A stretch of 64,000 bases of DNA from the human T2T-CHM13v2.0 reference genome, Homo sapiens, in the NCBI RefSeq assembly GCF_009914755.1, contig NC_060936.1, one strand, 5' to 3'. Made by a program: the position numbers and the translations under genes. The notes below the pieces were generated by a model that was not told where the DNA came from, did not search any database, and was given only the letters and a program-made list of their open reading frames with translations. Shown here one piece after another: positions 30,440-61,103 of the stretch; the first letter of the stretch is position 1; each line of letters opens with the position of its first letter.

Positions 30440-31670
<1,231 letters not shown>

Positions 31671-31671
31671 A

Positions 31672-31755
31672 ATAATAATGCACATTGGGTTCTTATTCTG
31701 TGCCAGGCACTCTGCTCACTTATACATTATTTTATTTAATCCTTACAACAACCTT
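31672..31755 (-). mobile_element. MIR, left part (continues at 32830)
   Basis: tgtgccaggcactctgct...atttaatccttacaacaacc. Confidence 0.75.
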
Positions 31756-31768
31756 ACTAAATGGGTTG

Positions 31769-32230
31769 GACACATCAGTCCAACCTTTGCCTTGTCTTCC
31801 CGTGGTCTTCTTCCCCATGTCTCTCTGTGTCTTCTCTATTGCTAGACAGGGGTAATAGACAAGGTTCACACAGAACAATGCAACTTACTGTAGATATTTC
31901 AAGCAGAAATAAATTAACACAAGGGATTGCTAATTTGGCACCCACTGTGGCTGCCTGACCTCCTTCACGCTCTGGAGCTCCACTGACACATCCTCAAGGT
32001 AATGTCATTTCCCATTCTTGGAAGAAGAGCTCTGATTTCCCTGACTCTCCCTCTCCAGCTTGGTTTTAGTGACAATCAAGAACAATCCCTGTAAGGGAGC
32101 TGTCACTTCTACTCAGACATTTCTCCCAAAGAGTGACAACTTAACTTGGGTTCTTTCCCCTCTTGCTTGTGAATTCTAGGCACAATGGTACATATTTTAA
32201 GGGAGGGAGAAAGCAGAAATCCTAGCAGAA
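31769..32230. other. Composite locally templated insertion (inverted copy of 35451-35525 plus direct copy of 33905-34288)
   Basis: Manual alignment; 13-bp direct repeat ACTAAATGGGTTG at 31756-31768 and 32231-32243. Confidence 0.88.
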
Positions 32231-32238
32231 ACTAAATG

Positions 32239-32289
32239 GGTTGTGGTAAGGATTAAATAAAATAATGTATAAATGAACAGAGTGCCTGG
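32239..32289 (+). repeat. Inverted copy of MIR segment 31703-31753
   Basis: 48/51 identical to the reverse complement of 31703-31753. Confidence 0.92.
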
Positions 32290-32291
32290 AG

Positions 32292-32829
32292 TGTCAGGAG
32301 TCCTCAAACCAAACCAATTTCAATGATTCACTAGAAGTACACGCAAGACTCAGGATATAGTCTTACTCAAGGCTAAGATTTATTACAGTAAAGAGTACAA
32401 AGTAAAATCAGCAAAGAGAAAAAGCACATGGGGTAAAGTCTGGAGGAAACCAGGTGCAAGCTTCAAAAGTCCTGAGTCAGGTAGGATGTGCTTAATTCCT
32501 CCAGCAACTTATTGTGACAACACGTGTGAAATGTTGTCTATCAGGGAAGCTCATTAGGGCCTCAGTGCACAGGGTTTTCACCAGGGGCTGGTCATGTGGG
32601 CACTCTCTGTCTAGCATGTACCAAAATGCTAGACATGTACCAAAAAACAGGTGTTCAGCATAAATCGCAGTTTTACAAACAGTCTAGGCACGATAAGCCT
32701 CTCTTATCATTTAGGGAATAGTAGGAACCCTCATCAAATCTAAGTTACCAGACACCAGGCAAGGGTCAACCCTGCCATCAGGCCTTTCTGAGAATAGTAG
32801 TCTTGGGCCTGCTATGTAAACTTCTCACA
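32292..32829 (-). mobile_element. MER21-family solo LTR
   Basis: tgtcaggagtcctcaa...gatttattacag...cctgctatgtaaacttctcaca; TSD ggag/gtag. Confidence 0.8.
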
Positions 32830-32960
32830 GTAGGTACGCTGTTATCCCCACTTTGTAGATGAAGACAAAGGAGGCTTAGAGTAGTCAACTAGTTACTTAG
32901 CTGGCAAATGGTGGCACTGAGATGTAAACACAGGTTTATCTGAATCCCAAGCCTGTGCAA
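32830..32960 (-). mobile_element. MIR, right part
   Basis: gtaggtacgctgttatccccactttgtagatgaag resumes the MIR broken at ~31755. Confidence 0.7.
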
Positions 32961-33053
32961 TAACCTGTGAATTATAATACACTGAAATTTTATTTAAAAA
33001 ATTTGAGAGTTACTACATTTCAGTCAAATAAGTAGGTATATTCAGAGAAGTGA

Positions 33054-33383
<330 letters not shown>

Positions 33384-33481
33384 TTTTTTTCTTTAAATCA
33401 TTGTTTGAACTTCTTTTTAACTTAAGCTTGGTAAGCCTAGGAAATGCAAATCATATTTAATGAATGCAGGAAACTTTGTCA

Positions 33482-33862
<381 letters not shown>

Positions 33863-33904
33863 TTACAAGAGATCAGGGAGACAGTATTTGTCCCAGATCC
33901 TGGA

Positions 33905-34288
33905 GGTAACAGACAAGGTTCACACAGAACAATGCAACCTACTATAGGTATTTCAAGCAGAAAGAAATCAACACAAGGGATTCCTAATTTGGCACCCACT
34001 GTGGCTGCCTGACCTCTCTCATGCTCTGGGGCTCCATTGGCACATCCTCAAGGTAATGTCATTTCCCATTCTTGGAAGAAGAGCTCTGATTTCCCCAACT
34101 CTCTCTCCCCAGCTTGGCTTTAGTGACAATCAAGAACAACCCCTACAAGGGAGCTGTCACTTCCACTCAGACATTTCTCCCAGAGAGTGACAACTTGGCT
34201 GTGGCTTCTTTCCCCCTCTTGCTTGTGAATTCTAGGCACAATGGTATATATTTTAAGGGAAGGGGAAAAGCAGAAATCCTAGCAGAAA
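33905..34288 (+). repeat. Donor copy of a ~380-bp local duplication (possibly old MaLR-derived sequence)
   Basis: About 91-92% identical to 31851-32231 by manual alignment. Confidence 0.9.
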
Positions 34289-34750
34289 TATGAGCTATAT
34301 TCTCTTCCCCCTGGGTTTCATCTGTTCAGCATTAGTCCAGAATCTGGTAATGAGAATGAAAGAAAGGACAAGATGACCCATGCAGAGTGCAGCAACACCT
34401 TCTTGTTCTCAAGTCACAGATGAAAAAAAAAAAAACTGTTCTGACAAGAGATTTGCGTAGACTTGAAAGGTCTTCACTAGATTCACTTCGTGCTGCTATC
34501 CCACAGCCCCACTGTATGATGCTTCTCTCATCTTAGTCACCAATGGAGCTTGCAGGAACCAATTTGCCTGGCCCTGAGCTTCTCTTCCTCTTTTTACCTC
34601 CAGCCTTTTGTTCGTTTTGCTACTTTTAGGTCCACAACAGCGTAAGTCCCCTAAATTTTCTACATGTCAAATATAAAACTGTAAATGACACAAAATTTAA
34701 TAAGGAAAAAAGTGAAAAACAGAAGTATAACATTAAAATTTAGTGTTCTC

Positions 34751-35065
<315 letters not shown>

Positions 35066-35667
35066 TAAAATTTTGTGTTCTCTGTGGATTTAGTATACTC
35101 CTTAAAATATAAAAACTGTATATCAAAGTTAATGAAATATTTGTATAATCACTGTCTCCAAGGGCCATATTGAAGACTGAGCGGGTAACCTTCATCACAA
35201 TCTCCAAGCCCCTCAAGCTGCCTCCTTTGTCCTCAAGATGGCTAATATATTTTTTTCTTGCTGCAATAAGTTGATTTGCTTCTCCCCAAAAGATATGTCT
35301 AAGTCCTAACCCCGATACCTATGAATGTACTCTTATCTGAAGAAAGCGTCCTCATAGATATATTAAGTTATAAATCTCAAGATGAGATCATCCTGGATTT
35401 AGAGTGGGCCCTTATAAGAGATAATTCAATGGCGGGTCCTTATAAGAGAGAGCAATGAAGAAGACACATAGAGACACAGGGAAGAAGACCACGTGAAGAA
35501 AAGGTGGAGGTTGGACTGGGGCATCTACAAACCAAGGAATTGCAAGCATCGCTGGCAGCCCCCAGAAGCTGGGAGAGAGGCATGGAATTGATTCTTCCTG
35601 AGAATCTCCAGAGAGAACCAATCCTGCTGACACCTTAAATTTGGACTCCTGGCTTCTTAGAGTTTGA

Positions 35668-36002
<335 letters not shown>

Positions 36003-36058
36003 CAAGTTCTGTTGTTTTAAGCCATCTAGTTTGTGATAATTTGTTAAGGAAGCCCTAG

Positions 36059-36614
36059 TGTAGCAGTGGAAAGGAAACCTAGCATGACTGTCTCCATTTT
36101 GCTCCTAACCACTTCCACTTCCCCACCTGCAGTGATATCTTTTAGGTTAACTGCTTTTGCTTATCTCTGCACATAGACCAAGCTAACTATGGGAAGAATT
36201 TAGTTTCTTATTTAACTTGAAAGAAGTACAACAGTAGTCCCATTCCAAAATTAACCCCCAAGGAGATAAGAAGAGTATATACACAAGTCACAATGTCGTG
36301 TTAAAGATTTATAGGAGCATTGTAACCTGACCAAGGACAAAAAAGCTTCACAAACTCCCCTTGGACTTCCAGTGCTGCCCAGATGTCTGTGGTCATCAGT
36401 CACCTCTTGACCTCAAGCCTCTCCCTCTTTTCCCTTTCCCTAACATAAAAAGAGCTTAAAATTCTATTAACTTAAGATGGATCTTTAGGACTCTAGTCCA
36501 CCATCTTCTTGGTTTGCTGGCTCTCCAAATGGTCACTTTCCTTGCCCCAACACCTGGTCTCTTGATTTGTTGGCTGTCATATAGTGAGTAGCACGAGCTT
36601 CGAACTTGGGTACA
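36059..36614 (+). mobile_element. MER4-group ERV1 solo LTR
   Basis: TG...CA ends; ctccattttgctcctaacc, accaagctaactatgggaagaatttagttt. Confidence 0.75.
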
Positions 36615-46813: not shown

Positions 46814-47210
46814 TGCTATGGTTTGAATGTGTCCCCTCCAAAATCCAGGGGTTGAAACCTAATAACCAATGTGATCGTATTGAGAGGTGGGTCCTTTAGT
46901 AAGTGATTAGGTCATGAGGGCTTCTTCCTACATGAATGTAATTAAGGCTCTTATAAAAGAGGCTTCATGCAGTATTAGACTCTTTTGCTCTTCTATCTTC
47001 TACCAGGTGAGGACATATTGGTCCTCCTCTCTGGAGGATGCAGGAACAAGGAACCATCTTGGAAACAGAAACTGGGTTCTTACCAGACACCAATTATGCC
47101 AACACCTGGATCTTGGACTTCCCAGCTTCCAGAACTGTGAGAAAATATATTTCTGTTCTTTATAAAGTACCCAGTCTCAGGTATTTTGTTATTGCAGTGC
47201 AAACAAAGAC
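46814..47210 (+). mobile_element. MST-family MaLR LTR (MSTB/D-like)
   Basis: tgctatggtttgaatgtgtcccctccaaaatcc...ttacccagtctcaggtattttgttattgcag-like end. Confidence 0.85.

Positions 47211-60368: not shown

Positions 60369-61103
<735 letters not shown>

What the first reader, a model, noticed from the sequence alone, without database searches (positions are those of the whole stretch)
31703..32289. Two-template, poly(A)-less composite insertion with a 13-bp TSD at the tip of a DNA palindrome
Seen: the insert 31769-32230 has three parts. 31776-31843 is the reverse complement of 35451-35518 inside the MLT1 LTR 3.7 kb downstream (58/68, ungapped, several differences of CpG-decay type). A ~7-nt linker (agacagg) follows. 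31851-32231 is a direct copy of 33905-34288, 2 kb downstream (~91-92%). The insert is bracketed by a perfect direct repeat ACTAAATGGGTTG. Removing the insert and one repeat leaves a hairpin with 51-bp arms and a ~10-nt loop. Inference: extending each broken 3' end inward gives minus-strand copies of both donors, so both ends could have primed on one plus-strand template (ssDNA or a local RNA) and been joined in the middle. That is L1 twin-priming geometry, but there is no poly(A), no L1/Alu cargo and no good TTTT/AA site. It could be a fossil of cruciform cleavage repaired by templated synthesis (Pol theta-type end joining, MMBIR/FoSTeS, or RNA-templated repair). The ~8% copy divergence suggests an old primate event.
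Basis: partly seen in the sequence, partly recalled or inferred. Interest (0 to 1): 0.85.

Follow-up and report, generated by a model that had tools for sequence, protein, structure and literature searches.

The report
Break-repair scar at palindrome tip
Two pieces of DNA copied from spots 2 and 4 kb away were patched into the tip of a small hairpin-forming repeat in an ancestral primate, which looks like a fossil of error-prone break repair rather than a jumping gene.

Summary
There are 51-nt inverted arms (48 of 51), an exact 13-bp direct repeat, a 381-nt direct copy (B, 348 of 381) of unique DNA 2.1 kb downstream, and a 68-75-nt inverted copy (A) of an old LTR 3.7 kb downstream.

Searched across the genome, B has one relative, the local donor. 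A and its local donor are each other's best hits.

New here: an old SINE was split by an old LTR (R, 32292-32829), and its two halves abut. So the whole block 31769-32291 is secondary, including the right palindrome arm. That arm is a fold-back copy primed at a native 5-nt inverted microhomology, so the palindrome is itself a repair scar.

Best reading (about 0.45): two successive DNA-level repair events. Fold-back synthesis first made the palindrome. A later break at its tip was patched with two locally templated pieces, leaving the 13-bp duplication.

L1 twin priming fails on poly(A), cut site and cargo. It agrees only in duplication length and geometry. A shared plus-strand template is a 1-in-2 outcome by chance.

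A single multi-switch event, RNA templating and fragment capture remain open. No outgroup genomes were available. Interest is moderate.

The parts
31675..31768 (+). 5' half of an old SINE (MIR-like by recall). It contains the left arm, the loop and the native 13-mer.
   Evidence: Family copies align from 31675-31698 up to 31753-31767.
31703..31753 (+). Left palindrome arm, native SINE sequence.
   Evidence: 48 of 51 complementary to 32239-32289. Genome-wide, its best hit is the right arm at 94%, against 75-82% for other family copies of similar length.
31749..31768 (+). Native inverted microhomology CAACC (31749-53) ... GGTTG (31764-68) with a 10-nt spacer. This is the inferred fold-back priming site.
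   Evidence: Read directly. It folds as a 5-bp stem. Both motifs belong to the SINE family sequence.
31756..31768 (+). Left copy of the 13-bp direct repeat ACTAAATGGGTTG.
31769..31843 (-). The donor is 35451-35525.
   Evidence: 58 of 68 ungapped over 31776-31843. Reciprocal best genome-wide hits. A and its donor share rare states.
31844..31850 (+). Linker AGACAGG, 3-7 nt of uncertain origin.
   Evidence: TGCTAGACAG, which spans the end of A and the linker, has an exact 10-nt match on the minus strand at 32607-32616. This is a weak lead.
31851..32231 (+). Piece B, a direct copy of unique DNA at 33905-34288.
   Evidence: 348 of 381 identical. It is the only other copy in the genome.
32231..32243 (+). 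Right copy of the 13-bp direct repeat. Its first base overlaps the last base of B.
32239..32289 (+). Right palindrome arm, a secondary inverted copy of the left arm. 32244-32289 is the newly made part.
   Evidence: It lies between the SINE 5' half and LTR R and belongs to neither.
32290..32291 (+). AG, two unassigned bases between the right arm and LTR R.
32292..32829 (+). Old LTR-like repeat R (TGT...ACA) that split the SINE long before these events.
   Evidence: At least 790 word-level candidates, of which the 40 scored were 72-78% identical. 5' starts cluster at 32288-32293 in 7 of 13 copies. 3' BLAST ends fall at 32822-32823 in 6 of 7 copies. 4 of 6 copies run on to an ACA end.
32830..32960 (+). 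3' half of the same SINE.
   Evidence: Collinear with the 5' half in 7 of 9 family copies. In L078 the halves overlap by 7 nt.
33905..34288 (+). Donor D2 of piece B. It is unique sequence with no flanking duplication.
35451..35525 (+). Donor D1 of piece A, inside an old LTR.

Best explanation
This is a fossil of two successive DNA-level break repairs in an ancestral primate germ line. It is not a transposition.

Step 0 (shown). An old SINE had been split by an old LTR, R, so the sequence read ...ACTAAATGGGTTG | R.

Step 1 (inferred). A break occurred at that junction. The 3' end GGTTG folded back onto CAACC, 10 nt upstream on its own strand. It was extended about 46 nt and then joined to R, with 2 stray bases. 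This created a 51-bp-arm, 10-nt-loop palindrome.

Step 2 (inferred). The new palindrome broke at its tip with a 13-nt stagger. Each 3' overhang primed short DNA synthesis on nearby sequence. The left end copied about 75 nt of an LTR 3.7 kb downstream. The right end copied about 385 nt of unique DNA 2.1 kb downstream. The two new strands were joined through a 3-7-nt junction. Both overhangs were kept, which gives the 13-bp duplication.

The 462-bp spacer then stabilised the inverted repeat. The enzymes involved (Pol delta/MMBIR-type or Pol theta-type) are not identified.
For: 1. The block is secondary. The SINE halves 31675-31768 and 32830-32960 are collinear in 7 of 9 family copies and overlap by 7 nt in L078. 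R's ends lie at about 32292 and 32829. So 31769-32291 belongs to neither repeat.
2. The right arm is a copy of the left arm: 48 of 51, and it is the left arm's best genome-wide hit. The copy starts at a native 5-nt inverted microhomology.
3. B has exactly one relative in 3.1 Gb, the site 2.1 kb away. It is the only high-identity low-copy pair in the window.
4. A and D1 are reciprocal best hits (78.8 bits against 68.9 for the next). Their identity lies at or above the 99th percentile (77.8%) of 496 pairs among 32 other copies, in both alignments. They share a state seen in 1 of 32 other copies.
5. Excluding CpG-context sites, A/D1 differ at 9.4% and B/D2 at 7.9%, compatible with a single age.
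6. The 13-mer is exact and bounds the insert. Deleting the insert restores a -46 kcal/mol hairpin.
7. There is no poly(A) and no L1-type cut site.
8. Known parallels read in passages. Fold-back inversions of 2-150 bp primed at short inverted microhomology next to a break, and two-donor inverted insertions from one locus, are reported in yeast (PMC11724301). Germline multi-template insertions attributed to MMBIR are reported in humans (PMC8421209).
Against: - No allele with the bare palindrome was seen, because no outgroup genome was available. The order of events and their number are therefore inferred.
- The arms differ less (3 of 51) than B/D2 (33 of 381), although the model makes them older. 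The difference is not significant.
- Microhomology at the outer junctions is weak. There is 1 nt at B/13-mer. At 13-mer/A there is 1-3 nt, or 5 of 6 with a 2-nt offset.
- A is more diverged from D1 (58 of 68, and 4 of the 7 extra bases differ) than B is from D2.
- A 13-bp duplication equals the median for L1-mediated insertions (PMC12016303).
- Arms of 51 bp are short by the standards of experimentally fragile palindromes (recalled).
- Templated patches of about 400 bp are long for Pol theta-type joining (recalled).
Confidence: 0.45

Rival explanations
1. One complex replicative event (MMBIR/FoSTeS type). A single broken or stalled 3' end at the SINE|R junction switched templates four or five times. 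It copied D1 inverted, perhaps 6 nt from inside R, then D2 direct, then 13 nt of its own left flank. It then folded back on the left arm and joined R. On this reading the '13-bp duplication' is one more templated piece, and an uninterrupted palindrome never existed.
For: All pieces come from within 4 kb and lie in mixed orientations. Divergence is similar for all pieces. A possible third 6-nt template with 4-nt microhomology lies at 32607-32616. Multi-part germline templated insertions and microhomeology at initiation are described (PMC8421209, passages).
Against: The direct 13-nt copy would have to stop at exactly the base where the insert begins (31768). A staggered break explains this for free. 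Recopying the strand's own flank needs a sister chromatid or strand displacement. Microhomology is 1 nt at the B-to-13-mer switch. The 10-nt linker match is expected about 0.02-0.15 times by chance in the local region (my estimate).
Confidence: 0.2
2. RNA-templated insertion. Both 3' ends at a staggered break primed reverse transcription on one local plus-strand transcript spanning 33.9-35.5 kb. The enzyme would be either L1 ORF2p (twin priming without poly(A)) or a repair polymerase with reverse-transcriptase activity.
For: Extending each 3' end inward gives minus-sense copies of both donors, so one plus-strand template would suffice. The 13-bp duplication equals the L1 median. 5' inversions occur in 18-22% of L1 and 13% of processed-pseudogene insertions (PMC12016303). 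The donor LTR carries an AATAAA near 35666-35671.
Against: There is no poly(A) at either end. The implied nicks TAGT/A and GTTG/T are outside the TTTT/A, TTTT/G, TTTC/A set. Poly(A) is found in over 90% and the cut-site motif in 63-70% of bona fide events. The cargo is unspliced intergenic DNA plus an LTR piece. The two copied segments lie 1.16 kb apart on the putative RNA rather than adjoining. A retrocopy landing within 4 kb of its source is about a 1-in-10^5 to 10^6 coincidence for trans mobilisation (my estimate). With a duplex DNA donor, same-strand origin is expected half the time. No gene is annotated in the window (hub annotation).
Confidence: 0.1
3. Capture of ready-made DNA. The staggered tip break had 5' overhangs that were filled in, giving the duplication. 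A pre-formed fragment was then ligated in by end joining. That fragment would be either two separate pieces, or one displaced nascent strand that had already switched template, in inverted orientation, within the donor locus.
For: Junction microhomology at the target is 0-3 nt, as in end joining. In yeast, complex insertions with two donors from a single locus in reverse orientation are described and explained this way (PMC11724301, passages).
Against: I found no clear microhomology between D1 and D2 at the internal junction, whereas the yeast cases have a median of 6 bp. Nothing explains why fragments from 2-4 kb away would be available. It cannot be told from primed synthesis by sequence alone.
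Confidence: 0.15

Closest known systems
Fold-back (snap-back) inverted insertions at double-strand breaks (yeast Break-Ins study PMC11724301; Pol theta snap-back synthesis, PMC4912351, seen in search listing and abstract only)
   Same: An inverted copy of the sequence right next to the junction. It is primed at a short inverted microhomology beside the break (here 5 nt with a 10-nt spacer). Its length is within the reported 2-150 bp. The far junction has 0-2 nt of homology.
   Different: Here it is fixed in a primate germ line. At 46 nt it is longer than most reported cases. The product then became the site of a second insertion.
MMBIR/FoSTeS templated insertions (germline MMB-TI events, PMC8421209)
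   Same: Donors are retained. Templates are nearby. The insertion has several parts in mixed orientation. There is microhomeology at initiation (GGGTTG against GGTTTG).
   Different: Templates are 2-4 kb away rather than within 100 bp. The pieces reach 385 nt. An exact 13-bp duplication flanks the insert. Some junctions have only 1 nt of homology.
L1 twin priming (Ostertag and Kazazian 2001, seen only as a cited reference; features from PMC12016303)
   Same: A 13-bp duplication, an inverted 5' piece next to a direct 3' piece, and both pieces as minus-sense copies of one strand.
   Different: There is no poly(A), no EN-type cut site and no L1, Alu, SVA or mRNA cargo. The segments are 1.16 kb apart on the template. 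The source is only 2-4 kb from the target.
Templated sequence insertion polymorphisms, classes 1 and 2 (PMC5110952)
   Same: Non-repeat genomic sequence is copied into a new site while the donor is retained.
   Different: Class 1 has a duplication plus poly(A) and a TTTT/A site. Class 2 has none of these. This case has the duplication alone, two donors, and donors on the same chromosome a few kb away rather than distant.
Centre-break palindrome revision and breakage at palindromic AT-rich repeats (Cunningham et al. 2003, seen only in the reference lists of PMC3300023 and PMC7680136; content recalled)
   Same: The break is at the centre of a hairpin-forming inverted repeat. The outcome destroys the short spacer and stabilises the repeat.
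   Different: Arms are only 51 bp. The outcome is a templated insertion with a duplication, not a central deletion or translocation. No evidence was obtainable that a cruciform formed.

Membership tests
L1 ORF2p-mediated insertion with twin priming | Target-site duplication of about 5-25 bp | tested here: met
   Exact 13-bp repeat. The L1 median is 13 bp (PMC12016303).
L1 ORF2p-mediated insertion with twin priming | Poly(A) tail at the 3' end of the non-inverted piece | tested here: not met
   B runs into the 13-mer with a 1-nt overlap. A runs into the other copy. There is no A or T run at either end.
L1 ORF2p-mediated insertion with twin priming | Endonuclease cut site of the TTTT/A type | tested here: not met
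   The implied nicks are ...TTTAGT/AAGG on the bottom strand and ...GGGTTG/TGGT on the top strand. Neither is TTTT/A, TTTT/G or TTTC/A.
L1 ORF2p-mediated insertion with twin priming | Cargo is L1, Alu, SVA or a processed mRNA | tested here: not met
   B is unique intergenic DNA with a single local relative. A is a fragment of an old LTR.
L1 ORF2p-mediated insertion with twin priming | Inverted and direct pieces are adjoining or overlapping parts of one RNA | tested here: inconclusive
   The strand sense is the same for both pieces, but the segments lie 1162 nt apart (34289-35450), with an Alu of unknown relative age between them.
Fold-back inverted insertion at a break | Inverted copy of the sequence immediately beside the junction | tested here: met
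   32239-32289 is the reverse complement of 31703-31753, 48 of 51. It lies outside both the SINE and R.
Fold-back inverted insertion at a break | Primed at a short inverted microhomology next to the break end | tested here: met
   CAACC at 31749-53 and GGTTG at 31764-68 are both native SINE sequence, and GGTTG lies at the very end of the SINE half.
Fold-back inverted insertion at a break | Arose at a double-strand break and depends on Pol delta or Pol theta plus end joining | not testable with these tools
   This needs genetics. Only the sequence outcome is visible.
MMBIR/FoSTeS templated insertion | Inserted pieces copied from nearby retained templates | tested here: met
   Donors lie at +2.1 and +3.7 kb and in the left flank. 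All are still present.
MMBIR/FoSTeS templated insertion | Microhomology at each template switch | tested here: inconclusive
   5 nt at the fold-back. 1-3 nt (5 of 6 with an offset) at 13-mer/A. 1 nt at B/13-mer. Possibly 4 nt (TGCT) if the linker came from 32607-32612.
Templated sequence insertion polymorphism, class 2 | No target-site duplication, with end-joining features at the junctions | tested here: not met
   An exact 13-bp duplication is present. Class definitions are from PMC5110952.
Centre-break revision of a palindrome | Break at the symmetry centre of an existing palindrome | tested here: inconclusive
   The duplication spans -3 to +10 nt around the centre of the reconstructed hairpin. 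Whether the bare palindrome ever existed as an allele could not be checked.

The most novel reading that the evidence does not exclude
A fold-back repair created a palindrome that later extruded as a cruciform and was nicked on the 3' side of both hairpin loops (2 nt inside the loop on one strand, 5 nt past it on the other). Both 13-nt 3' overhangs then primed on a single local plus-strand molecule, either a nascent transcript or exposed lagging-strand template. This would be a natural germline example of dual-primed, single-strand-templated (possibly RNA-templated) break repair that mimics L1 twin priming without L1.
Probability: 0.12. Interest if true: 0.8.

Novelty: new variant of a known kind. 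Interest (0 to 1): 0.45.

Why it matters
Templated insertions and fold-back inversions at breaks are known mainly from yeast assays, cancer genomes and short germline events. Here every junction of a larger, fixed germline example can be read to the base.

It also suggests a sequence of cause and effect. A repair scar, the fold-back copy, created a hairpin-forming structure. That structure then attracted a second break, and a spacer insertion neutralised it.

The case shows that a 13-bp duplication plus an inverted 5' piece is not proof of L1 action. That matters for pipelines that classify such insertions as retrotransposition.

It is a single anecdote. Its value depends on whether a genome-wide search finds more cases.

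Tried and rejected
- **Ordinary repeat or retrocopy with both pieces pre-joined.** Rejected. Genome-wide searches with the insert and with A alone found no such locus (7 of 7 candidates scored; 6 of 6 scored).
- **B as the ancestral copy.** Rejected by the SINE/LTR anatomy.
- **Two independent inverted SINEs as the arms.** Rejected. The arms are 94% alike, against 75-82% for other family copies of similar length, and the right arm lies outside the SINE.
- **A structured RNA.** 0 Rfam matches over 31000-36500.
- **Other local low-copy duplications in the window.** Only old pairs of 75-88% identity were found, none related.
- **A third template for the linker.** A 10-nt exact match at 32607-32616 is kept only as a weak lead. 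In 26 of 100 shuffles the 13-nt pattern with up to 2 mismatches had at least as many matches (3) as observed.
- **Several single-event hairpin-intermediate schemes.** I worked these through on paper. None gave a direct 13-nt duplication without a second copy of the flank.
- **Cunningham et al. 2003.** Not held.
- **Not available.** There was no repeat library, so the family names MIR and MLT1 are recalled, not tested.

Full report
**1. The observation.**
- The arms 31703-31753 and 32239-32289 are 51 nt long and 48 of 51 complementary.
- ACTAAATGGGTTG occurs exactly twice in the window, at 31756-31768 and 32231-32243. None of 100 shuffles gave two copies.
- 31851-32231 (piece B) matches 33905-34288 (donor D2) at 348 of 381 aligned positions, with 29 transitions, 4 transversions and 3 gap columns. 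The Kimura two-parameter (K2P) distance is 0.094.
- 31776-31843 (piece A) is the reverse complement of 35451-35518 (donor D1), 58 of 68 without gaps. Four of the ten mismatches form two TG/CA pairs, the pattern left by independent CpG decay.
- A script removed 31769-32243 and folded the result. It forms a 51-bp stem with a 10-nt loop at -46 kcal/mol (DNA parameters), z = -15 against 200 shuffles.

**2. Are the local sites really the donors?** I searched the window's own 3.1-Gb assembly.
- B has one relative only, D2. The flanks of D2 have no other copy apart from the neighbouring Alu.
- B/D2 is also the only high-identity low-copy pair in a self-comparison of the window.
- A belongs to a large old LTR family (100 word-level candidates, 40 scored), so its origin needed more care.
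  - With A as query, all 6 candidates were scored. The best non-self hit is D1 (78.8 bits, 85%). The next is on another chromosome (68.9 bits, 83%).
  - With D1 as query, A is the top non-self hit. It ties in bits with a longer 74% match.
  - I aligned A and D1 with 32 other copies. These were chosen as the best hits to A or D1, which works against my claim.
    - D1's best other match is 72.6% and A's is 70.8%.
    - The 496 pairs among the others have a median of 57.9% and a 99th percentile of 77.8%.
    - A against D1 is 54 of 69 in that alignment and 58 of 68 ungapped.
  - A and D1 share a C seen in 1 of 32 other copies and a G seen in 4 of 32.
- If A had come from some other copy at the age of B, a relative of about 91% identity should exist. 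None was found.
- Against this, the 7 bases of A next to the 13-mer (31769-31775) match several other family copies 7 of 7 but match D1 at only 3 of 7. Either D1 changed afterwards or copying was inaccurate there.
- I put the local origin of A at about 0.85.
- Outside CpG contexts, A/D1 differ at 9.4% and B/D2 at 7.9%. That is compatible with a single age.
- By recalled neutral rates, a K2P distance of 0.094 is roughly 30-45 million years. I did not test this.

**3. New anatomy: the palindrome is itself secondary.**
- To the right of the right arm lies an old LTR-like repeat, here called R. It has at least 790 word-level candidates genome-wide, of which the 40 scored were 72-78% identical.
- Alignments to 13 copies start at window 32288-32293 in 7, at 32298 in 1, and at 32308-32320 in 5. 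Several copies begin TGTCAGG-like, as the window does at 32292.
- At the other end, 6 of 7 BLAST alignments stop at 32822-32823 and 1 at 32817. Past that point, 4 of 6 copies inspected run on to an ACA end, which the window has at 32827-32829. So R is about 32292-32829.
- Directly after R the sequence resumes the same old SINE whose 5' part forms the left arm.
- I aligned each half separately to nine other genomic copies of that SINE.
  - In 7 of 9, the best match of the right half lay just downstream of the left-half match on the same strand, with spacing close to that expected.
  - In L078 the two halves overlap by 7 nt. That is about what the target duplication of R would leave.
  - Taken singly, only 1 of the 9 right-half scores beat all 100 shuffles. 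The argument rests on collinearity.
  - By BLAST alone, 1 of 9 copies matched both halves.
- It follows that the ancestral state was SINE half, ending ...ACTAAATGGGTTG, directly on R (uncertain by about 3 nt).
- All of 31769-32291 is therefore later. That block contains A, the linker, B, the second 13-mer, the new part of the right arm and two stray bases AG.
- This shows that B is the derived copy without needing outgroups.
- The right arm starts at GGTTG (31764-31768 in the native copy). That motif is complementary to CAACC (31749-31753), 10 nt upstream, and both are native SINE sequence. This is the signature of a 3' end folding back on its own strand and being extended.

**4. Junctions.**
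- 13-mer to A. The flank ends GGGTTG, and the reverse complement of D1 reads GGTTTG two bases before the copy starts. That is 1-3 nt of terminal microhomology, or 5 of 6 with an offset.
- A to B. There are 3-7 unassigned bases. TGCTAGACAG, spanning the end of A and the linker, has an exact 10-nt match on the minus strand at 32607-32616 inside R. By my estimate such a match is expected 0.02-0.15 times locally, so it is only a lead.
- B to 13-mer. One shared A.
- 13-mer to right arm. 5 nt (GGTTG).
- Right arm to R. AG, with no homology.

**5. Mechanism.** Retrotransposition in trans is very unlikely. Both donors lie within 4 kb of the target. There is no poly(A). The implied nicks (TAGT/A and GTTG/T) are outside the motif set used for L1. 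The cargo is unspliced unique DNA plus an LTR fragment.

The simplest account is two DNA-level repair events.
- First, a break at the SINE|R junction was healed by fold-back synthesis of about 46 nt and end joining. This made a near-perfect palindrome.
- Later, a break at the tip of that palindrome, with a 13-nt stagger, was patched with two locally templated pieces.
- If the overhangs were 3' overhangs, the nicks lay 2 nt inside the loop on one strand and 5 nt past the loop on the other. Both are on the 3' side of the respective hairpin loops. Each overhang could then prime synthesis, which keeps both copies of the 13-mer.

With a duplex DNA donor, however, that has a prior of one half, so it does not indicate an RNA or single-stranded template.

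I favour two events over one multi-switch event. In a one-event model the direct 13-nt copy has to end at exactly the base where the insert begins, and the strand has to recopy its own flank. A staggered break explains both at once. This is a parsimony argument, not a test. The arms are, if anything, less diverged than B/D2 (3 of 51 against 33 of 381), though not significantly so.

**6. Comparison with what is known.** I read passages of five papers.
- PMC11724301 describes yeast fold-back inversions of 2-150 bp. They are primed at short inverted microhomology beside a break and captured by the other end with 0-5 bp of homology. It also describes complex insertions with two donors from one locus in reverse orientation.
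- PMC8421209 describes germline multi-part templated insertions attributed to an MMBIR-like process. It notes microhomeology at initiation. Its detector, though, only looks for templates within 100 bp.
- PMC5110952 defines class 1 templated insertions (duplication, poly(A), TTTT/A site) and class 2 (none of these). The present case fits neither.
- PMC12016303 gives the L1 hallmarks: duplication with a median of 13 bp, poly(A) in over 90%, and a cut-site motif in 63-70%.
- PMC3300023 supplied the context on how inverted repeats form hairpins and cruciforms.
- The centre-break idea is cited in PMC3300023 and PMC7680136. The original paper was not held.
- I ran five literature searches. None turned up a duplication-flanked, poly(A)-less, two-donor local insertion at a palindrome tip. 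Five word searches do not show that none exists in print.

**7. Verdict.** Its interpretation is partly right. It is a templated repair scar with an L1-like geometry but is not an L1 event. The palindrome is a scar too, and the single-template inference is not supported by the data.

It is a new variant within known kinds of templated break repair. It is interesting as a fully readable germline example and as a caution for classifying insertions, but it is one case. The decisive test, orthologous loci in other primates, could not be run here.

Noticed in passing
window 32292-32829 with 31675-31768 and 32830-32960: An old LTR-like repeat (TGT...ACA, about 538 bp, copies 72-78% alike) sits inside an old SINE. 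The SINE's two halves overlap by about 5-8 nt, which is probably that LTR's target duplication. NCBI's repeat mask, as listed by the hub, covers none of these three pieces.
   Followed up: yes
window 32607-32616 (minus strand): An exact 10-nt match to TGCTAGACAG, the string spanning the end of piece A and the linker. It could be a third 6-nt template reached through 4-nt microhomology, or it could be chance.
   Followed up: partly
window 35510-35518 and 31769-31775: Donor D1 reads GGGG where piece A and nearly all of 32 other family copies read GATG-like. So D1 seems to have changed after the copy was made, or the copy was inaccurate next to the junction.
   Followed up: partly
locus L070 (G000:C2:126629712-126629748): Another copy of the SINE on a different chromosome matches 31726-31762 at 36 of 37, including most of the loop sequence. 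This shows the loop and the start of the 13-mer are native to this SINE subfamily.
   Followed up: partly
window 60423-60493 and 47089-47160: An inverted low-copy pair, 66-72 nt at 86-88% identity and 13 kb apart. Other low-copy pairs of 75-80% lie at 5644-5802/7166-7325, 20796-20956/23600-23771 and 45742-45912/59385-59558. They are probably members of old repeat families.
   Followed up: no
window 34040-34125 (and the copy at 31986-32070): The donor and its copy both keep a short stretch bounded by AAG/GTAATG and ...CCAG/C. It looks like a splice donor and acceptor pair about 70 nt apart. It is unspliced in the copy, and there is no evidence that it is used.
   Followed up: no
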